The notes below the pieces were generated by a model. It saw only the letters and a program-made list of their open reading frames with translations. It was not told where the DNA came from and did no database searches. The translations under genes were made by a program, and so were the position numbers. A DNA stretch of 64,000 bases from positions 58,280,001-58,344,000 of the forward strand of contig OX597815.1 of the NCBI GenBank assembly GCA_951406725.2, written 5' to 3'. This DNA is from Octopus vulgaris. Its lineage: Eukaryota. Positions 2,901-52,982 of the stretch are shown here, piece after piece; the first letter of the stretch is position 1, and every line of letters begins with the position of its first letter.

Positions 2901-2903
<3 letters not shown>

Positions 2904-18659: not shown

Positions 18660-19480
18660 AGCTTTTAGGACAGGAAGGGAAAGTTTTGAAGATGACCCAA
18701 GGTCTGGATGCCTCTGTAACTGCCACCATTGAGGAAAACATTGATTGTCTTCACCACATAGTAACTATAAATCAAATAGCCAATACTACAAGCATATCTC
18801 ATAAGGAAGTTGAGAATATTCTGCATAATGAACTTGGCATGACAAACGTTTCTGCCCAGAAGGTGCCACATCTTCTAACAGATGATCACATTATGGGAAA
18901 ATTTAACTTCATTTCAGGCAGATCCAGTTAGTTTCCTTGAACATTTTCTAACCCAGGATGAGTGTTGGCTTCATCACTTTGAACCAGAGGCAAAGAGATA
19001 ATCCATGCAATGGAAACACCTCTCCTCACCTGCTCCAAAGAAGGCCAAAGTCATTTCATATTCTAGAAAGTTGGTGGCCTCAGTTTTTTTCGGATGTAAA
19101 AGGCATTGTGTTTATTGACTATCTTCAATATGCTGACTTGCTGAGGTAGTTACAAAAGGCTAACAAGACCAAATGTCCAGGAAAACTGACGAAAGAGACC
19201 TTGTTTTATCAATGCAAACACATGTCCTTTGTTTCAATGGCTGCTATGTATGACTGTAGTCTTGAACTGGTTTGTTTCCCAACAGGAAAAATCTTGACTG
19301 GGAACCAGTATTGCAGTGATAATGATGATGATGCTGTTTTTGACCAACAGGATGAAAACTTCTTCACCAACAGGATCCAAGCACTGTAACACTTATGGAA
19401 GAAGTGTGTGGGCTGCAAGGATGACTATGTTGAAAAATAAACCTCATTAGTCCATCCCATGAGAGTACCTTGGTCAGCCA
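18660..19480 (+). mobile_element. degenerate mariner transposase fragment
   Basis: ILHNELGMTNVSAQKVPHLLT (WVPHxL-like), TQDECWLHHFEPE, FFSDVKGIVFIDYL; same family as 58941-60103. Confidence 0.8.
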
Positions 19481-20370
19481 TTAAGAAGGCTATGAAATAA
19501 ATATCCATTGCAGCACTAAATGCTATCTGCATCATAATTCCAACTTGTAATTACAGCATTGAATATCCAATTATGTCACTTTTAAACTGATAATGCACTT
19601 TTTACATTCTTATACAAGAACTTCATTATAATTATTCCATGCAGTCATGGGTCAAAAGAGTCACTTTTTTGGGTCAGGGACCACATCTCATATGTTCCAT
19701 TCTAATAGGGTTTCTATAGCTGGATGCCCTTCCAAATACCAACCACTTTACAGAATGTAATGGATGCATTTTACTATAGCACCAGAACATATTAAATGTT
19801 GTGGGGAGATAAGATGATGAAGCAATAGAAATGGGAGATGGTAGATGAAGAGTGAGATGGCATTGAATAAGGGCAGTTCCAATAACATCTCTCATTAAAA
19901 AGGTAGCCTGATGTGAAAATAGAGAGAAAAAGGCTTAAGGTGGCAGGAATTGAATACAGACAAATCCAGTGTCATCCTTCATTATACAGGTAACACACCA
20001 CATACCTAAACCAGCACAGTCTTTCTATTGTACACCACATTAAATTCATCTAATATTCAGTTGTTCTGTTCCACTATTTATGCACATCATGGAGTATATT
20101 CACATAATTTCTTTCTAGCCTTCACAAAGCCACACATTGCTAATATGCTGAATCTTACTTCACACAATCAAACAATCTACAGATAGAAACCTTTTGTTAC
20201 CAACTCAAGAGAACAGCTTCTTAATCATCTCTAGTGTTTTTATTTTGTCTTCTATGCTATTAACTACTTCTAGTGATCCTTCCAAGCATTTGAGGAATTT
20301 ATTTCGTGTGCTCTTTTTCAGGTCAATAAATTCTGTTATAACAAGAAAGTTACAGCCTCTACAGGCTTAA

Positions 20371-21447
20371 CTCTTTCGTTACTATATTTCTGACCAAAAT
20401 ACACCCCTTATGTGTTTCAATTAATTTCTAACATAATCATAAATTTAGTCTGGTTTCATTAAACAACTATAACTTTTTTATTTATCAATATATTAAAATG
20501 ATTTTTGGAAGATAATTTAATGAAATGTTCTCAACCAATTCTATACTATAATTTTTGTCACAAAGTGACTCTAATTGCAGGTAGATACAGGTAAATTCAA
20601 CAAAATATAAAATTATTAAAATTTTGTTCAAACATCGCTATAGAAAATGGGTTATTAGCTAATATTCAATTGGGTATACAACAAAATTTTACGATAGAAT
20701 TTGTTATTCTGGGTAACTTTCTGATACCCATAATAATATTTATGGCAAAATAGTCTTAATTTCATTTAAGGTTATGGGAAACCACTAACTATTCTTTCTT
20801 TCGTTTTGTTTACATTTAGCATAACGGTTCGTTTCCATTGTAATGATTTCAATTAGGCTCATTCGAAAAAGTAAAAAGAAATAGTCTAAAGCTTTACTCT
20901 TCTGGGAAAGTCTGTGGCTTGGTCCAGTTTCTTCAGAAAAATCACCGAAAGAAACAGTTTTTAAATTTTCACTCCATTCAGGTGCCAATTCATTTTCTTT
21001 ATCGCTGTTGGAGCTCTCGGATTCACTGTTTTCACTTTCGGAAAATGAAACATCAGATTCATTATCAAATACCACATGCTTTTTTTTTTTCAGTCATAGA
21101 GTTAGATTTATGAAGGTCTTCAGTAGAAAATCCTTCGAATTCTGACTCGCTGCTTAATATAATGAAATTCGTATCCATTTTTTGTCAGAATTACAAATTT
21201 TGAAAACACAATAGGAACAAATTTCGGAAAAAAATCTCCCAAAATTCACGGAATTAAAATTACACTTCGATTTTTGTACAAAACTGTAGTTGAACTCTTT
21301 ACGAAGTATAATACGTATTTTCACGAATGTACTAAAGAGATTTGCTCTGATATTCTCATTTAAATATGAATAGGTAAATTCAGGCGGCTTTGGGTGGGTT
21401 GGTCACATTAACCAAAATTTTTTTCGGGCGGTTTGGTAACGAAAGGG
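20371..21447 (-). mobile_element. piggyBac internal-deletion derivative with TIRs and TTAA TSDs
   Basis: TTAA(20367-70)-ctctttcgttac...gtaacgaaaggg-TTAA(21448-51). Minus-strand acidic N-terminus (SESEFEGF) and ALDYFFLLF...METNRYA typical of PGBD transposases. Confidence 0.88.
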
Positions 21448-22374
21448 TTAAACAGCTAAGTGAATAAGTATTGATGTGAGTTCAAACCACTACAGGCATG
21501 TCATCGTCTGTGTAAAAAGCATTTAATTCTACAAGCCCAATTTACAAATGACTTCAGTAGATTCAGCTGTGTGATTTAACACAAAAGTATCTAAAGTCAA
21601 GCATATTTTTATGGGCAGAGATTTTTATCCTTTGTATACTTAGATAAAATATTTAGCTATATTGGATTCAACATGGTATCAGGATGAATAAATTCAATTT
21701 TGAATCAGAAGTCCTAATTACCATAAAAGTATAAAGCAAAAAAATTTTCCAAAAGATAAATGAAAAAGCGAGTGTATTTTATCAATCATGTTAGAAGCTA
21801 AAGGCTAATTGCCCTTGCTTAAAGAAACTTGTTATCGTTCTCATCCACACATTTATCAATTAGCCTCAGGGACATTTATTAATTTGTCAGTCAGGTTGCT
21901 GTTGCTTTAAAATTACAGTAAGAAATTGATGGGAGAAATGATAAAATAAAGTATTAGTGTAAGCAATAAATTACACCAAATCTGAAGTAATTAATTTGTT
22001 GCTGAAGTAATTAATTTCTCACAAATCTCTATCCTATTTTTCAAAACCTATTGCAGGTGAAGAACTGCAAGATAGTTTTTAATCAACATAATGTTTTTCT
22101 TCACACCATGCTGATAAAACAATATATACATGTATGATAGGCTTCCACATGATTTCCTTTCACCAGATTCCATTCAGGAGTCACTGGTCAAGCTAAAGCT
22201 TACAGCAGAAGACAGTCAAGGTGCTTAAGTGGAAGTGAACATGGAAACTTATAGTTGCAAAGTAAACATCTTAAGCAGATGACCATGCAGGTATTTACAA
22301 ATATATTTAATGTTCATTTAAACTGAATGTCTAAAAAAGAATGAAAGAAGAAACTCAAAACATTTGCAATTCAA

Positions 22375-23353
22375 ATTAAAACATAGCAAGAATTACTTTT
22401 TTATTACTTTATTTATACATATTTTTATTTAATTTTAGCAAATCATTTTTTAAATCTTAACTCCATTTTTCATATATTCCTGACAGATTTAAATAAAATC
22501 AGTTCTCTGAGATAGAAGTAAAGAACTAGTGTGAACTTACCACTAAGCCAGATATCCCACGAGAAAGGGCATGGAATGAGGGAAGAACGCCACCCCCCTC
22601 CCGAAATTTCTGGTATTATTAACGAACTGGATATTTTCATTCTAAGCTGAAACCTGAAAACAGTAAACCAATCCACACTAGTATGAAGGTTGGGGGAATG
22701 GGTTAAATTACATTTCTTAATTTTTACAATTATCAAAAGCAAATAATTAGGAGTTTGTAAGCAAGCTGAAGAAATTTTATACCCCTCCTTTTTGGGAAGT
22801 TATTTCAATTTCATTCTCTTGGTTATTATTTTTTTCTTTTGCCTTTTCCATTTTGATTCATTATGTTTTTTAGTGTCCCCCGCCAAAAAAAAACCAAAAG
22901 CCACCAAAAGAAATGTAGTCTTCTTTCAAAATATTTATCAAAAACCAAAAGCTCAGACAGCATAATCCAACAATGCAAATCTACATTTCACATGCCTTAT
23001 AAGCTTGTCATTTGTATTGCAAAGAAGACAAAAAAAAAAAAAAAGAGAGAGGGGTAACTGAATTACTTTAAGCTATGGTGGAAAGGAGTGGTATATGTTT
23101 GATCATCAAAAACTATATATAGCACCCCCCCCCCAAAAAAAAAACAAAACTAAAGAATTCTAAGCTGGGAAGATAAGTTGAAGCATACAGATAAGCTTAT
23201 GAAAAGGTGACACATTGAAGAAAATTGCCTTAATTATCAATTAATATTTCATACACATTTATCTATAGTTTTAGAGATAATGAGTTAGAAGGTAGGGAAA
23301 ACAATTTCTCAGCATATTTCAAAAAGGAGAGACAAAAAACAAAACGAAAAAGG

Positions 23354-23402
<49 letters not shown>

Positions 23403-24817
23403 GAAAAAGAAATGAAAGATATATGCATCAAAGAATAGGATCAAATGCCAATAATGTAAAAGGAAATTCTCTTCAAATGAATATACAAAATTATATTTTA
23501 AATGGGATGTTTTTATTTCTGAAAATTCATCTATGTGAATTTTTTTATTTTTTTATTTCTTTCTATTGATTTTCTGTAAACATACACAGTGAGGAAATGA
23601 AATTTATCCAAACAAAACAACCAGAGCACAAAGTTGATAAAGAATTGAACAGTTGGTAATTATTGGGTGAAGAATTGAAGTAATCTTAATACACTATTCT
23701 GAGTGCAAGTTTACTTTTAAATAAAAAAAAACAAAACTAAGTTTCAACTATCTTAATTTTTATTTAATAACATAAAAACAAGGAACTGGTACTTCCTTTA
23801 GTTTTGAATCAGAAAAATTGCCAAGATCTCATGTTTGTAAATATTATCCAATGGACAAAAATCACCAGAATTTAAGGTAGCAATTTAATCTTGGCAAAGT
23901 ATATCTAGATATATATATATAAAAAAGCTCAATATCTGAATAGTTGAATAAAAAGTTAATACTTTAAGCTGCTGCTTTTAAAAATAAAGTTGCATACCTA
24001 GCTTAGTGTATTTCACACAAGTGGAAAACATATTACATTAGAATTTAATAATACCAAGGAGAACATGAAATGTTCTTTCAACAAAGAGCATTTCTGGAAA
24101 CAGACAATGGCATTGTTAAACTTAAAAATCCACACATTTTATATGTATGTATTTTTACACACACACACACACACACACACAAAATACAAGAATGTTTTCC
24201 TTTCTTCAGCAACCACATTTGCATAGATACCGCCATCATTGAACACTGAATATACTCAAATGATTTAATTTCTGAAGTGTTCAATCAATCTTAATTGACT
24301 TTATTTACTTTTTAAATTTTGTATTTCCATTATATGTAAGCTACTACACTGAGGAAATAATCTTGAACAAAATCTTTAGAAACTTCATAAAATATATAAC
24401 ATTTTTGCAGTATAGATATTTATAACATGAGTTTGAAAAGTGATGAGATCTTTCTAAAAAATCACATTACAATCCAGGTATGCAATCCTCCTAAGAGAAC
24501 TATACTACAGTTCAACTGTAATCTTCTCAAGAAAATCACATTACAGTTTAGCTTTGCAGCTCTCTTAAGGAGATATTTCTGTAATTATCTAGTCTTGTAA
24601 GTTGATAGTCTTGTAAGTTCAATTGTGTAACCCACCCAAGAAAATAATACTAGAACCCAACCACGTGCCTGGCCCTGAAGTTAACACTAACCCAGCTATG
24701 TAGCCCTTCTGTAAAGCTCACAAATACAATTGAACCATGCAGCCTAAATAGATAATTATATAAATCAGCAATAAAATAATAAAAACAGCATTGTACATTA
24801 ATAAAAGTGTATATATA

Positions 24818-24875
<58 letters not shown>

Positions 24876-27019
24876 CACACACACACATTCTTACAATTGT
24901 TACTATCTCCCAAATATCTTTCTTTTTTGTTTTATCATCTCAGAAGATTTTGAGTCATGTTTTTGTAAATTTAGCAAACACAATGAACAAAAGCAACTCA
25001 AAAATAATAGAAAGTTGTAAAGAGAGGATCTGCATAACAGAATCTTTTTTTTAGAAAACCTACACTGAGAAATAGAAATTGCAAAAATCTATTAATGAGA
25101 GGGAGAGCAAAGTATTACACACATATGCATCCTGACACTTACATTTCAATAGTACAACTATTTTTTTAAAGTAATCTTTTACAGAATTGTAAAATATAAT
25201 TGTAGTGTCAAACTAATTGCACATATAATTGTAGTGTCAAACTAATATCAAACAAATAATTATAGCTGAACATGAACTAAGGAAGTTGGTCCTTTGTGTA
25301 TGTGTGTGTGTGTGTGTGTGTGCATGTGTGTGTTGGAAGAGACATACTTAGAAATAATGAAAGTATACAAAGTAACAAAAAAAAAAAAGTTGGAAACACA
25401 ATCAGAAAGACATAGTATAGAAAATAGAAAAATAGATGGGTAAATAATGCTGGCTTTCTTTTCCAGCTAATTTAACATATCAGTGTGTTCATTCAAATAA
25501 GAAGGAAGAGGAGGAAACACTCAGGTTTCCTTTTACCTTTTGTTTCACTCAAAGATCTGTAAAAATGAAATATTTTTCATGATTGTTTTATTTTTATACC
25601 TTTGTTTATCACAGATTTTCACTGAAACCAGACTACAACTGAGAGTTGCACATAAAAGACAACCAGAGCTGTTAATTTCTATGGATAAATCCATTAAGTA
25701 CAACAGGCTTAGATGATGTTAATGAAATAATTCCATGTTGTTCAGAACAAAGTGAAATCATGCATTCATATATGTGTGAGTGTATATATAACACATTCAC
25801 ATGTATACATATATGCTTGTGTGTGTAATTTTAGAGTAATAAATGTGAAATGCTTCAATGACATTATAAGAGACAGGAGATAGTGGCTAAGAATAAGACA
25901 GATTTTTTTCCCTTTTTCCCATGCATGCTTAGATCATGTGAGCAACACACCAAGAGGTCACTGTGGAAGAGCACTTACAAAGTGAGAGTTTCAATGAAAT
26001 TTTGTAGTTACAAGAATGTCAGAAATATTGCAGTTGGTATACTGAAGGCAGTTTGATTAAGGACCATTTAGGGTGTAAATATTTTATAAAACAATTCATA
26101 AAGTACATATGTATATACTAGATCTTGGAGTAGGGGGTAATTATAACTGATGAAAATTAAATTAGAAGTATATAGGAATTATTTGAAATAAAAAGTTAAT
26201 TGCTAAAAATTTCAAAATTTACAAGATCAGGATTAACTTAGCATATATAATTTGAGAAGACAGTTTTAAAATATTTTGGAGTTAAAATGTAAAATTATTT
26301 TATCATATATAGATGTGGGTAACTAAAAGATTTGTTACTGTTTTTCCTGAAATTATTCTCTTTTTAAGCATCACCCTTACTTCCTTTTTTACAGTATTAT
26401 GTATATGATTTTCTGAAATATATTAATATATTTGTTTATTTTTTTAAATATTAAATGTGACTGGGACTAGAGAAAAAAATCTTAAGAAATTAAAACAATT
26501 CCAAACAGCATAAATTTTAGTTGCACTATTCACCACTGATCAGTGCAGCCACTGATTCAAAACTAGTCAACAGACAACAAGGATAGTTGTCTGTGCAACC
26601 ATTAACAAATTTGCAGGATTTTAAACTTTTTTTACATCAACTGTTTAGGTATTTAAAACAAAAGAAGAAAAAGAAACTCTGCAGTTATTGTCTCATGTCA
26701 TACAAAGTACATGCTAAAAACAATGCACTTAAGTATAATCTTATTACTAAAGAGCTAATTAACTTTAGCTGTCCCCACTATTTTGCCATTCAGCAGGTAA
26801 TGATTCTTTCTTTTTGTTTATTTTTATGAATTGTAAGATATTTTTGTTTGATGCTTATTTCAATGCTCTTATGAAATGGATGATTTAGTTGCACTGATGG
26901 AATCTAACCGGTTCATCATCTGATATCTAATGGTAAGACAGCTGAAATGTATTGCTGCATTCCATGTGAGAGCAAAATACTGTCCCATTGATCAACTTAC
27001 AACTGAACCATAGTGACTA
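22375..27019 (-). other. probable long 3'UTR of the FNBP1L-family gene
   Basis: ~4.6 kb U-rich (minus strand) segment with no recognisable interspersed TEs. It ends near three minus-strand AATAAA hexamers (plus TTTATT at 22400, 22408, 22424). The end point is inferred. Confidence 0.5.
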
Positions 27020-27174
27020 TTAAAGTCCATACAATGTACACTGAATATAAGAGCTAGGGACAAATCCATCTGAGCCATTTTTCTTGCGAACACGAGTCCA
27101 GCCATCACCTTGATCTTGTTCAAGAACAAACATCTGTTCATTTTCTTCCATTGATATTGAGCCTTCATTCATTG
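27020..27174 (-). CDS. FNBP1L: FNBP1L-family gene, last coding exon, SH3 domain and stop
   Basis: ttatctttccag|CA ATG AAT...GGA CTT TAA (followed by TAG). (A)MNEGSISMEENEQMFVLEQDQGDGWTRVRKKNGSDGFVPSSYIQCTLYGL*; GDGWTRVR and GxVPxSY are CIP4/FBP17-type SH3 motifs. Confidence 0.94.
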
Positions 27175-27376
27175 CTGGAAAGATAAAAAACATTCTTGCA
27201 AGGCATAAATCAAAATGAAGCCATCTTAATTGAGTTAAAAGTAATTAGAGCAATTTTTAAGCTAATATTTCCTGATTTCTTCTATTTATTTTACACACAT
27301 TTGCATAAATTGATATTTCCAATTCTTTTATCACTAATAAAACTGTTGTTGAAAGAAATCTAAGTATATTGATTAC

Positions 27377-27516
27377 CTTCAAACTGGTAAAGAGCACGAC
27401 AAGATCCAATGACCGGAAACTCATCAAATTCCTCTTCAGTTGATTCTTGGTCAGCATAATCAATTTCTCCCCCTCCATCAACTTCCTCACCACCATCTTC
27501 TCCACCAGCTATAGGT
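27377..27516 (-). CDS. FNBP1L: FNBP1L-family gene, acidic linker and start of SH3 domain
   Basis: tcttatttttcag|A CCT ATA GCT...TTT GAA G|gtaatc, 140 nt, phase 2 to 1. PIAGGEDGGEEVDGGGEIDYADQESTEEEFDEFPVIGSCRALYQFE (acidic patch then the SH3 ALYxF motif). Confidence 0.92.
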
Positions 27517-29095
27517 CTGAAAAATAAGATAAAAATTTGTGCTATATTAATTACTTCAGCAACAACAGGAGTTGCTTAATTTTGTTTCAAACTTGATATA
27601 ATTTATGTCTTACACTAGAATTTTATTTTATCATTTCTCCCATCAAGTTCTTATTGTAATTAGATAACAACAGAATATTGGCTGTGACTAAATAATTAAT
27701 AAATGTACAGATGAGGAAAATAATAAATGTAGCTAAATTAAGTGGCACTGATATTTAGAAGAACTCACAGAAATATAAAATTAACATTCATGAACTTGAA
27801 CATGGTATATAATTAACGAGTTTAGTTTAATGAAATAAAGGGACCACATAGAAAAGGAATAAGTTTAGGTTAACTATTTTTAACTAATGACAAGTAAATA
27901 TGTGTATATACAAGAAACCTGAGCTCATTTTATTTAAATTTTCAATTAACTGTAAGAAATACGAATACTTTCATGATAAACAAAAGTTTAGACAAACAAT
28001 TTTAACTTTGATAAACATTACATCATTTAGCTGAATAGTGTCAAATAATTTGGCCTATGACACTGATTGTCCCAAAACAACAAAAACAAAAATAAAAAGT
28101 ATTGCATTTTACAGTCTTCTATAGGATGATGCTTTCCTAAAGATATTGAACACTAGACTATTTATCTCAGACTGCTTATAATTAGTACCATTGCCATTAC
28201 TTTAAAACAAAACTAACATCTTACAATTAATTTTACATCTGCTTCATCAATTTTTAATGCTGAAATTCATTATAAATAAAAGTCTGCCTCCATAGCATCA
28301 TCAGCCTTACCTATCAGTGTACACTGTAGCTAAACATTGCATAATATTCCCTGATGAAATGTGACTCACTTGTTGGCTGGTCTTACCTATCAGTCACACA
28401 TACTATCAGTAGTCATAACTTAATTTATCTGAGCTGAGTTTTAGATTTTGTTTTAGTATGCAACACTAAATTTGTTAGCCTAGGTGTTTCATGTACTATT
28501 AATGCTAGCCTTTTCTAAATTAGGATTTCTACAATATTTCCCTATCCTACATTTCTTATTGTCATCAAGTTTAATCAAAATTTTCTTTATACTATATTTT
28601 AATGTGTTATGAAAACAACTCTCTACAGAAGAAGTTAATTTGAACCATATAAAACAAATGATTAAGATGAAACATAATGTAATGATCAACTGTTACTGAG
28701 CCAACCATTTTTGATAGAGTGAGGAAGAATGATACCTTAGTACATATTAAAGCTGATATGCACAATATATTAAAAAAAAAAAAGACCATTTATGGCATTT
28801 CTGATATACTGTTATTTCAATGAAACAAAAAATTCATGCAAAACCCAAAATTTAAAACAAAGTGGCATCTCAAATAATAAAAATCAAAAATACATGTCAT
28901 AAATATCTACTGCTGTCTCCTCTCTTCCACAACTACAGAAGTAGCAATACAGTGTTAAACTAAACATAATTTAAAGGGTAGTAATTAGAAGAGCAAAATA
29001 CACTAAAACACAACACAACACTAGGTACAAAGCAAGTTCAAGCATATAGGACTAAAGTTAAGCAAAAATACACAGTTGATTAGCCATTCACTTAC

Positions 29096-29128
29096 AGCCA
29101 AGTAAAAGTGCAACACTTAGATAAGAAA
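29096..29128 (-). CDS. candidate 33-nt symmetric phase-2 microexon encoding FLSKCCTFTW
   Basis: ctctctctcttctgttttgtttctaataag|T TTC TTA TCT AAG TGT TGC ACT TTT ACT TGG CT|gtaagt. Consensus donor, long pyrimidine tract, frame-preserving, but a weaker AAG acceptor. Confidence 0.45.
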
Positions 29129-31199
29129 CTTATTAGAAACAAAACAGAAGAGAGAGAGGGGAGAAATTATGACAAATAAGAGATACCAGAGTTTAATAAG
29201 AAACACACACATAAAAAAACCCAAACTTGTATGTAATTTGTGAATCAGTAATTAAATGCACATATTATTCTAGTTGCACATGAAGAAAACCATTTTTATC
29301 ATAAGAATCCATTAAAACGATTTCTAGCTTAAGCATGCATGGTGGGGTTACATACATTTGGGGAGAAGGGGATGGATATGAATCCCTTGTATTTGGCTAG
29401 CAGTTCATTTTAGAAGGATAAAAGGAAAAGTGGATCCTGGGATTTGAACTCAGAAATTAAGAGATATATAACTTTCATTTGAAAGTCTACCAATTCTACC
29501 ATCAATAATAGTAATTTTGTATTTTGGCACAGGAGCATTGAAAGGCAAGACTGACTGTGGCAAGATTTGAACTTATAGTACATTATCTGTTACTTCACTA
29601 TAATAATAAGCAGGAAAAACAAGAAGTCATATAAATGTTAGCAATTTTCGTTTGTAAGAGATACCACTACATTTCTTTTTCACACATAACTACACTTCAA
29701 ATATTGTTTTTGGAACTGAAAAACAGGAGCAAAATTTAGCTTCATTTTGAAAAGAACTTCCTATTTACAGCATGAGTTGTTTTTTTTGTGTGTGTATGGT
29801 TTATTTCTTCCTTTGATTTTTGAGCATCATGGCAGTGGTAAGAAACTCTCAGGAGAGTTGAACAGCAGATCTTCAGAGAAGAAACTCTTATCAGTAAGTG
29901 TTTTGGCCCTTCTTACACTCTAAGGGAGTCAGGCTGCATCCAGGTCATGACTTCTGCTGACACTTTTTTTAGTCACTTGGATATTGAAGACATGTTGTGC
30001 ATTCAAACCATACACAGAATATGTTGACAAGATCTAACTGGAAATCCTCTTCATTGTCTCTACTTCCTTAAGTTTAGAAATACCACCGATAGTCATGGTA
30101 GTGGTGAAATGTCAACAATATCAATGCTGCCACCAACACTACCACTATAGCTCACTCAGAGTTACTTCCTTTAGCCTGTTAAAATGCACACATATTACCC
30201 TCAAACAATATGGAGGTTGTTTTTATTCCTCCTTGATCAGAACCAGTGGGAAAACCTTTCCACTGCTTCTGATATTGTCTTTGGTCCTTTTCCTTCCAGA
30301 GATTGAGAATTATTTCATGAGACTGTAAGTAGATTTGACCACAAAGCATCTGGCTCCAACCTTGACCCAGAAGTTGGCTCCCCTCAGATGGCATGGTGAG
30401 TTGAAGTAAAACAGCTATTTTGATGAAATGGAAAGGAGTATGATATCTGGCCTCAATTCATTTCTTCCTGATGATTTATGGTTGTTTTGATGACTCCGGG
30501 AGGTCTGCTGTGTACTTTCAGTCATCAGCACCACCCATTAGAAAATGGTAAAGGTTAAAAGAAAATTTACTTATTGACCTGATCTAAATGTAAGGTCTTT
30601 GTATACTGGTGGGTTTGTAAGATGAGCATAATTATAGTAATAAGAGTAAATAACACTAATTTGTTAATGATGTGGCCCTCACAAAACCCTTTGAATGGAG
30701 ATAGTGAAGGCATAATTGGAGTTGTGCAGCTTTCAAGTTAGAGACCAACTGGAGCACAAATCCAGCTGAGACAAAACAAAAACTGATGCTCAGGAATTGA
30801 TGTCTTGTAAATGTGAAAACATCTATGTGTAATCAACTTACTTGTATTCAACCTATTTGGGCAGGTGAAAATGACATAACTGAACAAGAACAAGTAAAAG
30901 CACCTAATTTACACCAACAATCATTATGTTGTATCACCAAGTTTTACCTCTATTCATGCAATAGTTACATTTTTATGACTTTTTTTTACACTAGACAAAC
31001 TACATTTCATCAAAATTTTTAGTTTCTAACAGGACTAGGAGATTTATATTGAGAAAGTACTAAGTGTTAAAGATTCATAAGTGATATTAAATATAATCCT
31101 AACAGTGTGCAGCTATTTCTTCATACTTATGATAAACTAATTTTTTTCTGGTTGGCCAGGAGGAAGGAACTGTGGCCATGATACTCATAAACTCAATGA

Positions 31200-31740
31200 A
31201 ATTTTTGAGATTGATAGAGTTAATTTTAAGTTTAAACATCTGCAGGAAAAATGTGAGTGGGAAAGAAGTTCCAGAGGCTTGAGGTTCTGTGAAAGAAGAA
31301 TAGGCATACTAGTTAATGTGATGAGAGCTGCTGGATGGAGTTAGGTAGCTGTTGTAGTAGCGATAAAAGAAAGAAAAGAGATAATGCAGCTGTCAAATAG
31401 AAGTTTTTGTGAATCACTCAAGGGGCATTGTAAGGGTTAGTACTGAAGGAGTTAGTGTATGTATACATGGTGACAAGACTTGTGGAGTAGAGATGGAAAG
31501 TTTTGGAGGTGTCTTATCAAGTGAATGTATTGTGGACTTGGAAGTAAATGTGATAGTTTTCTCTAAAGGAGAGTAACTGACAGAATCATGTTGATTGGAG
31601 TGGTGGGAAGGAGGATTCCATAAAGTAGGTAAATACCCTTTTGGAATGATTAGCTGGTATTTGTGAAGTAAATGAGATTGTAGGCTGTAAGCTAAACTAA
31701 TGAAGTAAACAATATAACTAGAGAGCATACTGATACCATA
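31200..31740 (-). mobile_element. old CR1/Jockey-group LINE 3' fragment
   Basis: Minus-strand relic of the SFFPRTxxLWNxLP C-terminal motif near 31260-31305; heavily decayed. Confidence 0.5.
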
Positions 31741-33315
31741 TACTTAATCAAGAAAATAATCTAGTCACAGTAAAATTTTAACTTTTTCCACAAGAACCCT
31801 TCAAATCTCAGTCAGAACATTAAATTGTGTTTCCCCTATAGTTATATTATTTAATGAGGAGAATCCTATCCCAGAACATTTCAGGATTTCCAGGACAAGA
31901 TGAGCATTGGGGCAATCAGGAATGATTAGTACAGTTAGTGTTGTATAGTTAGAACTTTCAAACGTTGGTTAAAAGAAATGTCCAGATTTTTCCTGTTTTA
32001 GCATAAAATGGAATAAAGAGAGGGAAGGAAACCACAAATATAAAATATACAGTCATATAGTTTTATGCAAATATATATACTTATACTCATATAAAAATAA
32101 GTAGCTGTGGCAACAGAAATATCAACGATAGTTTTTATAGATGTTATGCCAAGTAGCTACTAAAATCAGACATGATACATGCAAGCATTAGGAAGAATGA
32201 TGAATGAAGAGAAATAATTCCATGATGAAAAATAATTGTAAGATAAAAACCACAACATGCACTTGAAAATATGTGAACTAGAGATGAAATATAATCAAAA
32301 TCGTTTCTAATTATGAAAACACAAAACATAGAAACAATGTAGTTTTAAGCAAAGTACTGGATGACTGTCCAGTATCATCAAGAATATGCATTAGGCAGAA
32401 TGTAACCACAGCACACATAATTTTTATATGGAAATATAAATATGTATAAGCAAACATGCATATATATCTGTAGGCGTGATATACATATACACAATCATAC
32501 ATGAGTGCATATATAAACATAATTGTTAGGTAAAGAAGTTCACCACACAGCCATGTGGTTTTCTATTCAGTCACATTGAATAGCACCTAATACCACTCAT
32601 CTGGTTACTGTCTTTTACAAGAGATGAGTGGAATGGAAACTGTGCAGAAGCCCAATATGTGTGTGTGTATGTGCGCACATGAATCTGTGTCTGTGCTTCT
32701 ATGCCAGCATATACAGATGTTTCAAGTTACATATTTTTTTATCAAAATGATATCTTAGCCATTCAGCAAATAAGGATTGATAATGTAAGTACCAAACTGA
32801 AATAAGAACTGGAGTTGATCTACTCCATTAAAACTTTTAAAGGCCATGCCCTACCATAGTTATAGCAGAATGACAGATAAGAGTATATAATATAATCTAT
32901 ATATAATGTATACAAATGTGAATTGTCTGTAAGTATGTTTGCCTTGTATTTAATGACTACAAAATTAACATCCATAAATCCATTTATTATTTATTCACCA
33001 TCTTACAGGGAAGTTTGTATAACTTTTATCTTGAAAAATAGCAACTGAATCTCTCAAGAAGAGGATGAAGACAAAAAGTTAAAATACAGTAGTATTAGCA
33101 GAAATGCAAAAAATTGGATAAAAGTCGTAATATCAGAAAAAGATTTGAAAATTTGTTACACAACATAAAAATTTTTTTTTTCTTCTTTCAGTTTGTCACA
33201 ACTCTTTTTTCCTCTTTCTCTTTGTCTTTTTCAAGTGGAACAGAGAGAGGCAGAGAATGTGGGATACACATGAAGAAAGAGGCACATATAGTGAAGAGGT
33301 GATGATATAGGTGAG

Positions 33316-33421
33316 TCATTGACATGAACAGTTCATAGTGAAATTCTTGAGAGACCCTCCCAATGAAACTCTACTATCATGAATAATGTTAAACATATTA
33401 GACACTGCAACATAGTAATCT
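33316..33421 (-). CDS. candidate alternative terminal exon (SH3-less isoform ending in CSCQ)
   Basis: ttttttgtctgatatcag|A GAT TAC...TGT TCA TGT CAA TGA. Phase-2 entry matches upstream exons; 34 open codons DYYVAVSNMFNIIHDSRVSLGGSLKNFTMNCSCQ*. No transcript evidence. Confidence 0.3.
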
Positions 33422-34168
33422 CTGATATCAGACAAAAAAAAAAAGTCATGACTTGAAGATTTTTAACCATAGATTTGCTTTATCAGGACTTAGGTTAAAC
33501 ACAACATCAATACAATAATAAAGCTGTAAAGACTGGTAAAAGGAAAAGAATCTAAATACTCAAGCAACCTAAATCAGAAACTCTACTTCCAAATACAGAA
33601 TCCCTTAAATATGCAAATAGCAACAATGACTGATGTATACATTATTGCCTTATGCATGCATATATTTGTATTAACAAATGTGAAACACATCTATACCTGA
33701 TAAAACAACATGCAATTTGTCCTCAAAACATTATTCGACTATCTTATCTAACAAAGGAGACTTAACACGGTACTGCAAAATATCAGAAACAGTAGCCAGA
33801 ATTTCCCACAAACCACATCATATTGTCTCATATAAGCTTACATACCAGCAAGAAAACCTTAATGCTAGACATATCAGTTACTGCAGTTAATTCTCCCTCC
33901 AATCATATACTTCTGTCCTGTGTTACTTTGAAACAACCCCCAGGAATTACCAAGTACCTTTGATAGTATGTTATACATATTCTTTTACTGGTTTCAGTAA
34001 AAGAAAAGTGATGCCAAGCTAGGGCATCATTTTTAATAGCTAAGTTACTATTTTACATCAGCAAACACCAAGCAGGTTTGGTACACAAAAAACACCAGTT
34101 TTTGTGAACCAAATTTTACTTGTCGAAGAAAACTTCTGTGTTTGTATCAATATACACATTTACCTTAC

Positions 34169-34213
34169 TGTGAGCTCTCAGCTCTAGGAGTCACAGAGGC
34201 ACTGTCATGACAA
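34169..34213 (-). CDS. FNBP1L: FNBP1L-family gene, 45-nt symmetric phase-2 small exon
   Basis: cttcttcctcttctctctctgtatacacacag|T TGT CAT GAC...AGC TCA CA|gtaagg; CHDSASVTPRAESS(Q/H). Confidence 0.68.
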
Positions 34214-35251
34214 CTGTGTGTATACAGAGAGAGAAGAGGAAGAAGTATAAAGTATACATGTAATGTAACTATATGCAAAGCTGAATATAACATGCAGAAG
34301 CGAACTCATATCCTTATTCTGTCAATTTCATGGTAACTGTTTAACTATTATCTTACTTATACACACACACATTGATCCATGTATCTACATGCCACTTGTC
34401 ACTGAGTTATTTCTGTTAGCTCATTTTCATTTTATTTATGTAAATAATCTGGGACATGAATGTGTTGTATTCTCTTTTTGTATTTGTCTAAATATCTTGT
34501 TTGCTGGAGAAAACATAGGACAACTGCTGGGCTTATGACACCAATTGAACACTGAATGAAGTAGAAACACATGTCCACAGCTGTTCTCCTGTCTCATGAC
34601 AACCAAACTGACCTTTTCCTTAATGGCATGTCAAATTTTAAAGAATTCTTGATTTTTCAAATTATCCCTCACCCTTCTCATATCATGGCCCGAATTGCCA
34701 CTAGGGAACTGTTCTCTTTCTTGGGAGCAGAGAAGACATCAATAAATCAAGAATATATTTTGTATGGTGTCTAATATACCCTTATTTGTTTTTACTGTAG
34801 ATACATACATGCACACACACACTACATACCCATACACAAACGCAGTCTGTAACACACAACTTCTTTCACCCATGTAAAAGTAGTCACATGTCATTACAGA
34901 TCATGTCTGCATGTGCACATGTGTGACAAAGCAGTCACTCAACATGCCAGAAATGGCAACCAAATCTCATGAATCATTCCAGTGGTTGAGCATCTAACAT
35001 TGACAAGGCCAAGATCACATTATCTGGTAGTTTTGGCAGTTGTGTGGCAGAGTTATCACCTGCTAGCAATATAAAGAAGAGTGTTTATAAGTACCAAGAG
35101 CCCATATGAGAGGTTCTCACCTAGTAAATATCTCGTATTCTGTGTTCTAACATGATTGCTTACAATATAATGATATACAAAAGGACTGTACAATCACAGC
35201 TGGAACACCTTTTATCATATAGTTCAATGAAAACTAACACAAGGCTTCAGC

Positions 35252-35285
<34 letters not shown>

Positions 35286-36395
35286 CAACCATATCACTAT
35301 CTAATCACACACCTATAGTCCTAAATAAGGAAGGGTACATTTGACTATGAAGTCCTTGATATACCAAAGAAAGATGCAATGATGACAGTTGGAGCACATT
35401 TTGTTACAGGTTTGCTCAATCGGGCCTAATCCGAGTAACCAATGTCAGAGCTTTTTGAGTACTGCAAATCATGTATGCTTGTACCAGTTCTATCACAATG
35501 CTACATCAACACCTAAAGGAATATTTGCATGGTTTATCAACATGCTAAAAATAGCAGTTAAAGCATGGATGGAAGGCTTTTACAGATGGTTTGTTTAAGC
35601 TAGAAATAACCAAATTTTCTCCAAGTTATACATCCAAGTTTCTTGAAAAAAGAAAATCACTATATATGAAAACAATTGTTAGTGTTATCTTTAAAATCAT
35701 GTGTTCACTCTACATACATACAGTTTTTACTCGTTGCAGTCATTGGAATGCAGCCATAGTGGGACATCACCATGATGGGATTAGTCAATGAAATCAACTA
35801 TAGTATTTACTTTTAAGTCTGGTACTACCAGTCTCTTTTTGTCAAACAGCTACATTCCAAGGATGTAAACAAGCCAACATCAATTATCAAACTGTAAAAC
35901 ACAAATACATATATATAAAGATTCACTCACAAGGCAGTGGTCAACCCAGAGCTGTAGTTATGAGGGACTGAACCAGAAACCACATGGTTGTGAAACAAAC
36001 TTCTTAATCACTAAGCCAAGTCTGTGTCAATAACATTACACACATTTAAATGTGGATGTTCAGTTAGAACAAACTATATTGTGGTAGATACCATGAAAGA
36101 AACTCTCATATTGGCTTTTGGTGCAAAATTCACTTGTTTATATCAGTAGTGGGGAAATAAATCCCTTCCATCTCCAGTGCTGAAACAACCAGATCACAGG
36201 ATTTTGATCTTCCTTGATCTTGTCAATGATGGCCACTCAGCTGTTAGAGATAGCAGCAACTCATCTCCCCATAAGCAATATATACAGAAACTGCTAGAAC
36301 AGGTGCTGGTATCGTGATTAGCCAGTGAGCTTGTTAGAAAATATATATTAGTAACAGAGGCAGTATTATTACAGAGAGGTAATATTTATAAGAAC

Positions 36396-36657
36396 AAACT
36401 ATACTGCATGCAGTAGACACCACGAGAGAAACTCTCATACTGGCTTTTGATGCAAAATTGACTCTTGTTTATATTGCTAGTAGGGAGTTAAATCTCCACC
36501 ATCTCCAGTGCCAAGACCACCAAATCAGGTGATCTGGTAGTCTTGGCACTGGAGATGGCAGGTATTTATCTAATTGCTAGCAATATAAACGAGAGTGTAT
36601 TTTGCACCAAAAGCCAACATAAGAGTTTCTCTCATGGTATCTACTGCAGTATAGTTT
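36396..36657. repeat. foldback (MITE-like) inverted repeat with extra partial arm at 36066-36196
   Basis: Two ~128-bp arms with a few-nt loop (ccatctccagtgccaagac / gtcttggcactggagatgg). Confidence 0.85.
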
Positions 36658-38480
36658 ACCAGTACTAGGATCAATTGTTCATTCTCTCTCTGTGTGGAAG
36701 AAAGTAGTTGTATTCAGATCTGGAGATGGGCTTCTACCAAGTTATATTTTCTCTTTTACTTGTTCCAGCCATTAGACTGCTGCCATGCTGGGGCACCACC
36801 TTGAAAGATTTTAGTTAAGACTCCTAGACACTGAACCCGAGATCATGTGACTGGGAAGTGTGAATTTCTTAACGACACAGCTCTGCCTGTATCCATGGTG
36901 GATTTAAGCGCAAATTAAAAAGGAGGATAACTAAATACAACAAAACACATTCAATGCTGTGTGTGTGCAGGCATTTGTGTGTTTAAGGTGTTTACTTTAA
37001 AACTATGTAGTTTCAGATTCAGTCCCACTGCATGGCAGCTTGGCCAAATCTCTAAGCCAGCCAATGCCTTGTGAGTGGAATTGAAAGATGGAAATTGTAT
37101 GGAAGCCTATCATATTACATTGTGTGTGTTTACATTCTGCAACAGTTTCACTTGAAATCACTCAGGTAAAAGCAACTGACATTTGAGAAATTGCTTTACA
37201 CTTCAGCACTTTTTAAGTGAAGTAATACATCCAAGTTTCTTGTAAAAAGAAAATCACCATATATGAACACAATTGTTAATGTTACCTTTAAAATCATGTG
37301 TTCACATCCAACTTTAAATAAATGAATTAATAAGTTTGTTAAATGATAATAAATTATTTTTCTTTATTTCTGTGTTGTTCCGTTCTTGATTAATGTCCAA
37401 AGGTAATACTATTTATACAAGTCCATAAGAATATTACAGCCTTATAAGAAAATGATATATGCTTGAGTAGGTTTGAATAGACATTCTAGGTTGTTCGGGG
37501 AAAAATATAAGTTCAATATTTGTTTTTCTACTGTGACTGAGACCCAAGAATACTAATAATGAACTTGTGAGATTTGGATAAAAATAAAAAAATAAAATAG
37601 GAACTGCATCAAATACTCTTCAACATTTGCAAAGAAAAGCAAATTTATTTGTTCAGTGATTAAATCCTAGGTTTATTCAATTCATTTATACCTATATTAC
37701 TAAATATTAGTATATTCCTGTAAGCTGAAAAATGACAAATTATCTGTTAGTAAGTATTTATACATTTCTCTTGTCAATACAGGTTTTAGAGGAGGAATAT
37801 TTGAAATATAAATATTCCAAGTGATAGAGATTTTTGGAAGTTAGTCAAGAATAACAATAATGGTAGCAAATGTCCAAATAACCCTACAAAAAGAAAAAAA
37901 AAGCACCAGTGAGAAGATTAAATTTCATGCCTTGAGAGAAAAGAAAACCTTTTATATCCTGTCAGATATTAAATTTTCTTTTGTGTTTTAGAAAATGGAA
38001 TCCCCCACCCAATCTTCTCAAGCTAAGTAATATAGAAATGAAGATGTATTAGAGTTAAATAACTAGTTACAACCAAACTGTAAATGAGCAAGGTGTTAAT
38101 ATTCCTAATATAGAGGCTTTAGGAAACAAACAAGAAGTGAATAAGAAAAAAAAAAATACACAGAACCTATTCTATGTATTGTTCTGTTCATGCATCAGAA
38201 GAGAAAAAGTGGAGAGATATCATAGTGTGAAATTCTGGCACAAGTTCCAGCTTTGGGAGGAGACATGGCCAGGTTGGAAATTAATGTGAATGAGCAACAT
38301 CATAGCTAAGGTAGTAAAATTTTCTGGTTAAAATGTTTTTAAAGAAATTAAATTTTTTTTTTAAAGCAAAAAGTATTGAGAGAAATTTGGGTGAAATAGA
38401 CATGATCCTTGCTATGAAGTTATGAAGGTGTTAAGTATGTTTTCATGACTTAGTGCTACTGGCATAAAATCCCTTCATAC

Positions 38481-38513
38481 CCATTTTCACTGTCTTCTCC
38501 GCAAGAACCGTGC
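38481..38513 (-). CDS. FNBP1L: FNBP1L-family gene, 33-nt symmetric phase-2 microexon
   Basis: tttctttctttatttag|G CAC GGT TCT TGC GGA GAA GAC AGT GAA AAT GG|gtatga. Strong pyrimidine tract and a GC-rich island in AT-rich intron; HGSCGEDSEN(G). Confidence 0.75.
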
Positions 38514-38785
38514 CTAAATAAAGAAAGAAAAACATTGTTTTTAAAGACATGTTTATTTATGGTCATGTGTAATCTCTGATGAAGACATTTTCTTCATTAC
38601 AAAAAAAGTGTCTTTTCCTGTCAAATTGAAACAGAGGAACTTGGCAACCATATGTATTCTAGTTCACAATGATTGTTAACTAAATATTTTAAATATAACA
38701 ACTAAATATAACACTAAATGAAGAAAATAGTTAAAAAAAGAAAAAGAGATTAAAAAGAACACAAAAAATGGACTAAGATACATAC

Positions 38786-38866
38786 GGAACTGGTTGTTTT
38801 TGTGCGATGGAGGAGGAAGGATTAACTACAACTAAAATATCCAGTCTAACACTGCTAACCACATCG
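38786..38866 (-). CDS. FNBP1L: FNBP1L-family gene, 81-nt symmetric phase-2 linker exon (candidate cassette)
   Basis: tttcaatttcatag|C GAT GTG...CCA GTT CC|gtatgt, open in the required frame: DVVSSVRLDILVVVNPSSSIAQKQPV(P). Confidence 0.65.
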
Positions 38867-39779
38867 CTATGAAATTGAAATGGCACCTACAACAACAATC
38901 TAGGTATACTGAAATGAGCAGAGTAATCAATATTTTTCATTTATTTTTTAACGAAACACATAAGAATAAATATTAACTCAGAATTTTTATTTTCTATCAC
39001 TGTTTTATACTAATTTTTTCATGTTTAAATATGTGGAGCAGAAATTTCTTATTGTTAGAGGACCTCATCACTACTAAATCCAAAAGTCATAAGCTTTGTT
39101 CATAGAGATGAAATACATACTAAGCTGATAAAAGATAAATGTAAGTAATTTCTAAAGTTCAATGCACAATAGTTTAAAATGATTTTCAGAGATTCATTTA
39201 ATTCAGCACTTTTTCAAATCATTATAGACAATAAAAGTATTAATAAAGTGCTTTTGAACAGAACCATTAATGAAAATCCTCACCTCTTAATGTGACTGAT
39301 TCAAAATATTTTTACTATTTACATCTGACAAAAAAAAAATTGATAAGTCTACCATTAGTGAAATGAGATAGCTTTCTTTTTATGCAAGCCATTGTTAAAT
39401 TATGTCAAATATTTGATATAATTTGATACTATGAAGAATACTTATTCATGAAGAAATATTTTTTGACTAGGTACAAATCTAGCGGGGGGAAAAAAAAGAT
39501 ATTAGCTGGTATTCATTCCTTGAACCATAGAATGAGTGTTCTGCTCATGTAGCAAAATATAACAAATCATATACTAAACAAACTAATAAGATATCAATAA
39601 ATATTAAGGTTTAGCTGTAGTTTGATGAATGTGAAATGCATGTATACGAATGATATAAATGGTGACAAATGTATATATGTGATCGTTTTGCAAATGTGTA
39701 ATAATTGAAAGTGCATGAGGAAAAGTGTAGGCAGGAATTCCATTTGGTGTACGTAGTGTAATCACAGGAAAGTTAACAG

Positions 39780-41615
39780 AGAAAGTAGTATTCATGTGTA
39801 GAAGATGCACAAGAGCCATAGAGTCTACATATATATGGGAAATGGATTTTTTAGAATGTCCTGGAGGCTCTCTAGAGGTTGTAGATAATTTCTGTTACCT
39901 AGGTGACATAATTAGCAGTGGAAAAGATATTCCAAGAGTGTAATTACTAGAATAAGAATAGGATAGAAAAAAATTCAGATAGCTTTTACTTCTGTTGGCA
40001 ACCAAAGCTCTCTCCCCTGGAGTGAATGGAAGATTGAAAGATGCTTGTGCATAAACTGCAATGCTAGCAAGATGTAGTGCCTGAATGCAGAAGACACATG
40101 AAGATTAGAGAGAAATCATCATCGTTTAATGTCTGCATGGGTTGGACGGTTTGACTGAGGACTGGTGAGCCAGAGTCTGCACCAGGCTCAATCTGGTCTG
40201 GCAAAGTTTCTACAGCTGGATGCCCTTCCTAACACCAACCACTCCGAGAGTGCTGTGGGTGCTTTTAATGTGCCACCGGCACGAGGGCCAGTCAGGCAGT
40301 TCTGGCAATGACCACGTTCACACTCAAAAGGTGTTTTTACGTGCTACCTGCATGGGAGCTAGTCTGATGGCACTGGCAATGACCACGCTCGAATGTTGTT
40401 TTTCACGTGTCACCTGCACATGAGCTGGTAAGGTGACGCTGGCTACAATCATGCTTGAAGAGTGCTTTTCATGTGTCACCGGCACGGCAGCCAATCCGTG
40501 GCCCTGGCATTGGTCACGCTCAGATGGGCTTTTGACGTTCCACTGACATGAGTGCCACTCAGGCAGTACTGTCGTTGGCCACGTCAGCGATAAAGAAATA
40601 AAGCGAGTATGCTCATTTGGATGTGCAATGTCAGTGTACATGTATGATAGAATGCTAGTACATTGCGAGAAAATTAGGCATAAAAGGTATTAGATGTAAT
40701 GTGCAAGAAAAAAGACTACACTGATTTGGTCATGTGATGCATATGGTGCATAAAGAAGTGTCAGTCACTTAAAGTGGATGGAATTTGTGGAAGAAGGAGA
40801 CCCAAGGAAATCTGGGCCGATGCAGTGAGGGCCAATCTCAAGATGCTGAGCCTTAAGAAAGAGGTGACAAAGGACCAAAATATCTGGTGCTTTGCTTTGC
40901 TATGCTTGAAAAAAACCTGCCCACTACAACAAAATTAATATTCTAAAAACAACTTGAAAAATGCTTGTATATGGTGAACATCTTCTCAACCTCTATTCCC
41001 TCTGCCCAAGAAGCTTCTCTCTACACGCATCACTTCTTTATCTCTGATATTATTTGACTATCATTATCACCTGAGGGCTTGATAGGCACATACTATGAAT
41101 CTCACCCTTTCATTACTTCCCTTGTCCCCCTCCTAATCCAGTCCTCTTACCATTTCACCTATATTCCTCCCCATTGTGCCTTGAGGGTATGTCCTGACAC
41201 ATATCCAACACCATCTCTCCCACTCTTCTTTCTCTCTAAGTCTTCTCCATTCTTCTCCAATGAGGATGTCTTTGTATCTCTTTTACAGTAAGACGCCTAT
41301 CTCTATCCCTTTCTCATTCTTTTAACCTCATATCGACTGGTACAAAGGCACCTCCTTCAATACTATTCCCACCTACTCCCAGTTGAGGTGAATTTGTCTT
41401 GTCTTATAAGCTACTTGGTGACTCCACCAGTATTGGTGCCACACAAAAAGCCCCTAGTACACTCTGTAAAGTTGCTAGCATTAAGAAAGGTATCCAGCCT
41501 TGGAAACCAGGCCAAAACAGACAACAGAACTTGGCATAGCCCTCTGGCTTACCAGCTCTTGTCAAACTGTCCAATCCATGCCAGCATGGAGAATGGACAT
41601 TAAGTGATGATGATG
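39780..41615 (+). mobile_element. decayed RTE-type LINE 3' portion with (GAT)n tail, interrupted by an opposite-strand repeat at ~40115-40590
   Basis: LEVVDNFCYLGDIISSG...RIRIG RT C-terminal relic; ends ccatgccagcatggagaatggacattaagtgatgatgat. Confidence 0.65.
40115..40590 (-). mobile_element. (GAT)n-tailed RTE-related repeat/SINE copy
   Basis: Reverse complement of the cactctcggagtggttgg...aagggcatccagctgtagaaac...aaacgatgat family. Confidence 0.75.
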
Positions 41616-46982: not shown

Positions 46983-47131
46983 GCATAGTGGTGTGCAATG
47001 GGAGTTCCTGGAGCAGATATGTAGGGACCTGTATTTGATTGAACGCTGCTCTCAGAGGGACTGTTAGACAAAGAGTCATTAGCAGTACTGTGTCTTCTAA
47101 CCACTTTGCCTTCTGCATCAGCCATATAATT
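46983..47131 (-). CDS. FNBP1L: FNBP1L-family gene, end of HR1 and Ser-rich linker exon
   Basis: ttttctgctgcag|AAT TAT ATG...TAT GC|gtgagt, 149 nt, phase 0 to 2. Encodes NYMADAEGKVVRRHSTANDSLSNSPSESSVQSNTGPYISAPGTPIAHHY(A). Confidence 0.88.
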
Positions 47132-52849: not shown

Positions 52850-52982
52850 CTCAAATTTGATCAGTTCCTGGTTCAATCGGTCAAGTTTCTGTGCGTTCTC
52901 TTCCAGTTTTTTATCCAAGCTGCTAGCATCACCAAGTGCTGGATTGTTTATGTATACATCTTTCATCTTCAGCATACCCTCC
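52850..52982 (-). CDS. FNBP1L: FNBP1L/TOCA-1/CIP4-family gene, HR1 domain exon
   Basis: tttcatag|G GAG GGT ATG...TTT GAG|gtattg, 133 nt, phase 2 to 0, in frame with previous exon. Encodes (R)EGMLKMKDVYINNPALGDASSLDKKLEENAQKLDRLNQELIKFE (family motif KMKDVYxxNPxxGD). Confidence 0.93.

What the first reader, a model, noticed from the sequence alone, without database searches (positions are those of the whole stretch)
21849..27730. Long-range antisense copy of the SH3-exon splice acceptor just past the gene end: candidate RNA duplex for editing or splicing control
Seen: plus 21849-22064 is colinear with the reverse complement of 27498-27730, i.e. the last ~210 nt of the intron, the AG acceptor and the first ~19 coding nt of the SH3-start exon. 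It includes perfect 25-nt (21926-21950 vs 27622-27646) and 20-nt (21996-22015 vs 27546-27565) blocks. In a minus-strand transcript the two segments, ~5.5 kb apart, would pair. By manual count about nine transitions would be G-U wobbles (all five nearest the acceptor) versus about three to five A-C mismatches, so pairing is better preserved on the gene's own strand. The partner lies ~320 nt beyond the likely poly(A) site, so it would exist only in nascent read-through RNA or a longer UTR. Known: ADARs use distant editing-complementary sequences and coleoids edit extensively. Inference: the duplex could edit the acceptor AG or codon ATA (UAG context, Ile to Met/Val), or mask the acceptor and couple 3'-end choice to SH3 exon inclusion. 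Caveat: a neutral inverted duplication plus transcription-biased mutation can also give wobble bias.
Basis: partly seen in the sequence, partly recalled or inferred. Interest (0 to 1): 0.82.

Follow-up and report, generated by a model that had tools for sequence, protein, structure and literature searches.

The report
Flipped splice-junction copy past gene end
Just past the end of an octopus membrane-shaping gene lies an old, flipped copy of one of its own splice junctions; it is predicted to pair with the original in read-through RNA, but assembled RNA shows no majority editing there, so it is most likely a leftover local duplication and not a control switch.

Summary
The match is real: 21849-22064 is a 74%-identical inverted copy (E 8e-34) of 27498-27730, with both perfect blocks as stated. 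The host is the Octopus FNBP1L/CIP4 (F-BAR-HR1-SH3) gene. The copy runs into an exon start shared with other molluscs, so the junction is the donor. One genomic run laid a single contig there, which argues against a repeat family. RNA contigs from three studies show a 4.6-kb 3' UTR ending near 22385, 321 nt short of the copy. The copy has only short, low-depth contigs of unknown strand. The predicted duplex would cover the branch region, pyrimidine tract, AG and exon start. Support for function is thin. Wobble bias is 10:6 (p=0.23); the acceptor-side 9:1 run is matched by 2 of 16 repeat control blocks. No RNA contig on either arm carries an A-to-G change, though contigs show majority alleles only. 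The Ile ATA third base faces an A·A mismatch. The acceptor is used in all 24 cephalopod proteins read. Best reading: an old, near-neutral local inverted duplication (0.6). A splicing-delay duplex linked to an upstream 33-nt cassette exon remains open; cross-species conservation could not be tested.

The parts
21849..22064 (+). Distal arm: inverted copy of the intron end, acceptor and first 19 exon nt (complementary to the acceptor arm in minus-strand RNA)
   Evidence: one contig in DNA run X5 with one difference, 21857 C>T; low-depth RNA-guess contigs 21772-21951, 21969-beyond 22135, 22001-beyond 22135 with 0 differences
27498..27730 (-). Donor arm: last 214 nt of the intron (likely branch region about 27553-27547, pyrimidine tract, AG at 27518-27517) plus first 19 nt of the SH3-start exon
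   Evidence: junction spliced in RNA contigs
27377..27516 (-). SH3-start exon, 140 nt, begins in phase 2
   Evidence: present in 24 of 24 cephalopod proteins printed
27020..27174 (-). Last coding exon (rest of SH3) to the stop codon
   Evidence: joint 27174-27377 in 4 of 4 runs
22385..27019 (-). 3' UTR, about 4.6 kb; AATAAA/ATTAAA cluster at 22433-22405
   Evidence: longest RNA contig pieces end at 22385, 22452, 22484 in three studies, depth about 85-145
38481..38513 (-). 33-nt cassette exon (11 aa) directly upstream of the copied acceptor; included or skipped in octopods and decapods
   Evidence: loose ends show inclusion (X14) and skipping (X20)
46983..47131 (-). Linker exon (149 nt, ends in phase 2), upstream donor when the cassette is skipped
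52850..52982 (-). HR1 exon 2 of the FNBP1L/CIP4 gene
   Evidence: HR1_TOCA domain in P0001
60617..60729 (-). HR1 exon 1 of the FNBP1L/CIP4 gene

Best explanation
A roughly 220-nt piece spanning the intron end and start of the SH3 exon of the octopus FNBP1L/CIP4 gene sits in inverted orientation just beyond the gene's poly(A) site; it was likely copied there long ago by a local DNA repair or template-switch event and is likely drifting without a selected role, although it would pair with the acceptor in the small share of read-through RNA that still holds the intron. Shown: homology, position, 3' UTR end, low cover of the copy. Inferred: direction of copying (the exon start is shared with bivalves), the copying mechanism, age, near-neutrality. 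Predicted only: the duplex.
For: Homology runs collinearly through tract and AG into the exon (16/19 nt), and the same motif is in two bivalve orthologues (YAPIAG in P0012, P0013), so the junction is the donor. Divergence is 40/214 (K2P 0.215) with 24 transversions and 6 gaps that break pairing, and the copy carries a short internal tandem repeat. G-U vs A-C 10:6, p=0.23; vs 107:140 in repeat pairs, Fisher p=0.19. Of 16 repeat control blocks, 2 have a one-way transition run as strong (raw p<=0.011), 7 reach p<=0.033, and 1 has perfect blocks as clustered. No gene-strand A-to-G in contigs X12 27488-28069, X14 27488-28500, X7 27606-28500, or in the three distal contigs. The copy lies beyond the main 3' end at depth 3-5.5 vs about 85-145 in the UTR. 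In human Alu pairs editing decays with a typical distance of about 800 bp (PMC4066801, passages); these arms are 5.4 kb apart. Human conserved complementary regions are depleted at actively used splice sites (PMC8052449, passages).
Against: The copy covers precisely the branch region, tract, AG and exon start, paired with probability near 1 for most positions when the two arms are folded together. 9 of the 10 acceptor-side transitions are G-U (scan-corrected p=0.033) and the 25+20 nt blocks are clustered (permutation p=0.011). That block has -81.8 vs -63.6 kcal/mol in favour of the gene strand, though the core block favours the antisense, -62.1 vs -71.2. Both partners appear in RNA-guess runs: unspliced intron at depth 10-19 and the copy at 3-5.5. 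A conserved cassette exon sits directly upstream. Contigs cannot show minority editing, tissues are unknown, and conservation was not testable.
Confidence: 0.6

Rival explanations
1. The duplicate has been kept as a long-range RNA clamp. When cleavage at the poly(A) site is slow, the read-through tail would pair over the branch region, tract and AG of the still unspliced long intron, delay its removal, and so favour inclusion of the 33-nt cassette exon or hold the transcript in the nucleus.
For: Predicted near-continuous helix 27560-27499; acceptor-side wobble run p=0.033 and block clustering p=0.011; cassette alternative in 9 octopod (7 in, 2 out) and 15 decapod (8 in, 7 out) proteins; intron-exon boundary seen unspliced in X12 and X14. 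Human precedent for retained penultimate intron plus edited inverted SINEs in read-through RNA (PMC8791277, passages).
Against: Both statistics are matched by 1-2 of 16 repeat controls. The cassette is alternative in decapods too, where the element is not known to exist. Cleavage 321 nt upstream removes the arm from most transcripts. Cover of a long intron is expected from ordinary nascent RNA. No editing marks in consensus contigs.
Confidence: 0.22
2. The copy is an ADAR editing-complementary sequence that recodes Ile (ATA to GTA or ATG) or destroys the acceptor AG in neural tissue.
For: Exon start and AG lie in the predicted helix; first A of ATA (27512) is A-U paired. Coleoid neural recoding is extensive (PMC9068888, passages).
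Against: No A-to-G in main spliced contigs over 27377-27516 in X7, X12, X14 (0 other letters). Third A (27510) faces A·A. All 24 proteins read PIAGG (the octopod entries are mostly genome-derived and could not show edits). [quoted passage not shown]
Confidence: 0.08
3. Both arms are old copies of a dispersed repeat, or the piece was moved by a transposon.
For: A piggyBac-like end (TTAA-CCCTT, motif recalled) lies about 400 nt away at 21451. Run X5 did not lay its own acceptor-arm contig on the distal arm, so the copy-number test missed a known partner.
Against: Only 1 contig of 36 million in X5 laid on 21600-22135 at 80% or more; the nearby true repeat at 21000-21450 drew depth 200-1900 in RNA runs while the arms did not; homology enters an ancient exon.
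Confidence: 0.05
4. The copy serves as a splice acceptor of a plus-strand (antisense) transcript, since it reads tract-TTGCAG|G at 22052-22058.
For: Sequence shows a good 3' splice-site-like motif; the two upstream AGs of the donor are absent in the copy.
Against: Contigs of X7 and X12 run straight across 22057/22058 with no joint or loose end there; X11 has none laid.
Confidence: 0.05

Closest known systems
Locally templated inverted insertions / template-switch duplications (PMC7954356, PMC7025897: search listings only)
   Same: Short segment copied from a nearby donor in inverted orientation, one donor, collinear.
   Different: Junction microhomology cannot be read after about 20% divergence; the donor happens to be a splice acceptor.
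Pairs of conserved complementary regions in human pre-mRNA (Kalmykova 2021, PMC8052449, abstract and passages)
   Same: Kilobase-range complementarity overlapping splice signals, with a possible link to 3'-end processing.
   Different: Those are defined by conservation, lie mostly in introns and avoid active splice sites. Here one arm is beyond the poly(A) site, the site is constitutive, the match is a long duplication and conservation is untested.
ADAR editing-complementary sequences such as GRIA2 Q/R (recalled, no call)
   Same: Distant sequence complementary to an exon stretch in pre-mRNA.
   Different: Known ones are usually in the adjacent downstream intron and give demonstrable editing; none was seen here at majority level.
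Edited inverted SINEs in 3' read-through RNA near paraspeckles (PMC8791277, passages)
   Same: Inverted partner in read-through RNA, with an unspliced penultimate intron.
   Different: Those are multi-copy Alu pairs with visible editing; this is an apparently unique copy of the gene's own junction.

Membership tests
ADAR editing-complementary sequence | Complementary to the exon or site on the same strand | tested here: met
   (predicted duplex)
ADAR editing-complementary sequence | Both arms in one pre-mRNA | tested here: inconclusive
   Copy is 321 nt past the main 3' end; short contigs at depth 3-5.5, strand unknown, may be DNA, none shown joined to the UTR
ADAR editing-complementary sequence | A-to-I editing in the paired region | tested here: inconclusive
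   0 A-to-G in 3 intron contigs, 3 spliced contigs and 3 distal contigs; excludes majority editing in these runs only
ADAR editing-complementary sequence | Loss of editing on deleting the element | not testable with these tools
   needs a minigene
Conserved long-range splice-regulating pairing (PCCR type) | Cross-species conservation with compensatory changes | not testable with these tools
   No genome held; DNA holders are near-identical; related-species run X20 does not cover the arms; no hits
Conserved long-range splice-regulating pairing (PCCR type) | Masks an alternative, inactive or cryptic splice site | tested here: not met
   Acceptor used in 24 of 24 proteins; the alternative event is the upstream cassette
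Conserved long-range splice-regulating pairing (PCCR type) | Substitutions biased toward keeping pairs | tested here: inconclusive
   10:6 overall p=0.23; 9:1 near the acceptor p=0.033 corrected; matched by 2 of 16 controls
Inverted interspersed-repeat pair (Alu/SINE type) | Many genomic copies | tested here: not met
   1 contig laid from whole-genome run X5, but its own acceptor-arm contig was missed; X7's was found
Local inverted duplication | Single nearby donor, collinear, older than the copy | tested here: met
Local inverted duplication | Microhomology or repair scar at the junctions | not tested
   Ends are diverged and the left end aligns in two ways; no outgroup with an empty site

The most novel reading that the evidence does not exclude
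An octopus gene acquired, by inverted self-duplication, an antisense copy of its own 3' splice site placed just beyond the poly(A) site. Slow cleavage would let this tail clamp the branch point, tract and AG 5.4 kb upstream, coupling termination speed (and possibly temperature or ADAR unwinding) to inclusion of a coleoid-wide 33-nt cassette exon in an endocytic F-BAR protein.
Probability: 0.13. Interest if true: 0.78.

Novelty: new member of a known kind. Interest (0 to 1): 0.32.

Why it matters
As a neutral relic it matters little, though it shows how self-duplication can create ready-made ADAR or splice-masking substrates in a lineage with high editing. If conserved and functional, it would be a splice-site clamp supplied by RNA downstream of the poly(A) site, linking 3'-end cleavage kinetics to exon choice. 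I found no such case for cephalopods in the searches (listings). The decisive first test, aligning the locus across published octopod genomes, is cheap.

Tried and rejected
No whole genome was held, so the genome-wide blast could not be run. A 25-nt core pattern found 0 stretches in JGI metagenome contigs. The last SH3 exon found 12 loci at 59-75% identity, none with a hit to either arm. Rfam: 0 hits in 20000-40000. Earlier scan findings: nothing near, in relatives or by sequence. FNBP1/CIP4 terms: 0 hits in supplements of PMC8382921 and PMC4384741 (about 64,000 characters each held) and in the searched text of PMC9699675 (24,410 characters; its PDF not searched); full editing-site tables were evidently not among the text held and may bear on the editing question. 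Uncovered parts are no evidence: X11 had nothing laid on the distal arm, X20 nothing on either arm, and X7 has a hole at 27517-27605. One search hid 76 difference rows, 107 loose ends and 328 pieces; arm statements rest on listed pieces, bin depths and the full tables. The single difference 21857 C>T in X5 restores identity to the donor (n=1, uninformative). The low transition share (16:24 vs 247:131 in repeat pairs, p=0.003) is unexplained and may reflect the 26% GC content and alignment ambiguity. An 'edited RNA written into DNA' origin was rejected: the spectrum is not one-directional (7 T/C, 4 A/G, 3 G/A, 2 C/T, 24 transversions). No complementary partner was found in the window for the cassette-exon flanks.
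Full report
Observation. Self-blast of the window finds 21849-22064(+) matching 27498-27730(-) at 174/235 columns, E 8e-34 (MAFFT view). Both perfect blocks are exact. Neither arm has another strong partner in the window. The window also holds several larger inverted pairs that look like repeats, such as 18665-19479/58951-59818 and 40135-40561/49794-50216; I used these as controls.

Host gene. The minus-strand exons at 60729-60617, 52982-52850, 47131-46983, 38513-38481, 27516-27377 and 27174-27020 each translate to a stretch of P0001, named formin-binding protein 1-like of Octopus vulgaris, with FCH, HR1_TOCA and SH3 domains. Its cluster holds O. sinensis, O. bimaculoides and Argonauta proteins; a second cluster holds cuttlefish and unnamed transcriptome proteins (15 of 17 listed). 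The copied acceptor is the shared downstream acceptor of an 11-kb or 19.5-kb intron. The SH3-start exon is in all 24 proteins, always reading PIAGG; one N-terminal fragment (P0010) was left out.

Origin. Homology runs through the pyrimidine tract and AG into 19 exon bases, 16 identical. Two bivalve orthologues have the same YAPIAG motif, so the exon is old and the distal segment is the copy. In whole-genome run X5 one contig of 36 million laid on 21600-22135. A true repeat at 21000-21450 drew depth 200-1900 in RNA runs and the arms did not. Divergence is 40 of 214 aligned sites (K2P 0.215) with 6 gaps. The mechanism of copying (template switch or templated repair) is inference from known kinds (listings only).

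Transcription. All runs offered were assembled contigs, and the RNA label of X7, X12, X14 is a guess; six distinct runs of the 24 listed were laid. In three studies the long 3' UTR pieces end at 22385, 22452 and 22484, next to the AATAAA cluster at 22433-22405. The copy is covered only by short contigs: X14 21772-21951 (depth 3.2), X12 from 21969 (229 nt, 5.5), X7 from 22001 (157 nt, 3.3). Strand is unknown, DNA could contribute, and none is shown joined to the UTR. The intron next to the acceptor is covered at depth 10-19, across the unspliced boundary in X12 and X14.

Editing. Gene-strand A-to-G would read as T>C on the plus strand. The intron contigs have 0 differences (X14 27488-28500; X7 27606-28500) or 2 outside the arm and of other kinds (X12). 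The spliced contigs have 0 in 27377-27516. The three distal contigs have 0. This excludes majority editing in these runs; contigs drop minority variants and tissues are unknown. Published supplements held as text had no FNBP1/CIP4 entry but do not seem to include full site tables.

Pairing and its statistics. The duplex is predicted at -200.9 kcal/mol on the gene strand and -178.7 antisense; the acceptor block favours the gene strand (-81.8 vs -63.6), the core block the other (-62.1 vs -71.2). Folded together, 27560-27499 is paired almost throughout; the third A of the Ile codon (27510) is unpaired opposite A, the first (27512) is A-U paired, and the acceptor A is paired at 0.74 beside a bulge. 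This ignores the 5.4 kb between the arms. Transitions are 10 G-U to 6 A-C (p=0.23). The acceptor-side 9 of 10 gives p=0.033 after correcting for the choice of cut, and the two perfect blocks give p=0.011. Among 16 control blocks from repeat pairs (some overlapping families, GC 34-57% vs 26% here), 2 have a one-way run as strong and 1 has blocks as clustered. These are hints, not evidence of selection.

Mechanism. Most likely (0.6) the element is an old local inverted duplication with no selected role. Pairing needs read-through past the poly(A) site while the long intron is unspliced, over 5.4 kb. Human Alu editing decays with a typical distance of about 800 bp (PMC4066801, passages), and human conserved complementary regions avoid active splice sites (PMC8052449, passages). 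The main rival (0.22) is a clamp that delays this acceptor and shifts cassette inclusion or nuclear retention, akin to edited inverted SINEs in read-through RNA (PMC8791277, passages). [quoted passage not shown]

Conservation, the decisive test, could not be run: no genome, DNA holders share 90-96% of words, the related-species run X20 covers exons and UTR pieces but not the arms, and other searches were empty.

Verdict. Real and apparently single-copy; function unshown; new member of a known kind; interest 0.32. The novel reading, a poly(A)-distal clamp on the gene's own acceptor, has probability about 0.13.

Noticed in passing
window 38513-38481 (-): 33-nt cassette exon between the linker and SH3 exons, alternatively used in both octopods and decapods; O. 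bimaculoides has R where this genome encodes G.
   Followed up: partly
window 22385-27019 (-): 3' UTR of about 4.6 kb; pieces are about 93% identical in related-species run X20 (86 differences in 1240 nt).
   Followed up: partly
window 22025-22070 (+): The copy reads as a good plus-strand 3' splice site (tract, TTGCAG|G at 22057/22058); no spliced contig seen.
   Followed up: partly
window 21880-21875 (-): An AATAAA lies inside the distal arm on the gene strand and could end a minor longer 3' UTR that includes most of the arm; X14's contig runs past it to 21772.
   Followed up: partly
window 20785-21451 (-) and 53399-54218 (+): piggyBac-like remnants: TTAA-CCCTT end at about 21451 (motif recalled) with high multi-copy RNA depth at 21000-21450; DDE_Tnp_1_7 hit at 53733-54218; the 20785-21093 frame had no Pfam hit.
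   Followed up: partly
window 51833-52264 (-); 18665-19479 vs 58951-59818: Mariner-type remnant (HTH_48 hit); a separate 800-nt inverted repeat pair 40 kb apart at 71% identity.
   Followed up: no
window 61269-62528: Tandem duplication of about 613 nt at 96% identity inside an intron, each unit beside an (AAT)n/(AGT)n tract.
   Followed up: no
window 2900-3523; 35623-35708 vs 37220-37305; 36066-36657: Other short local duplications: a 100% direct plus 98% inverted set, a 93% direct pair 1.6 kb apart, and a palindromic element inside the long intron.
   Followed up: no
P0003, P0004, P0005, P0006, upstream of window 60729: Further small alternative segments (12, 5 or minus 4 aa) just before the HR1 exon among Octopus isoforms.
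   Followed up: no
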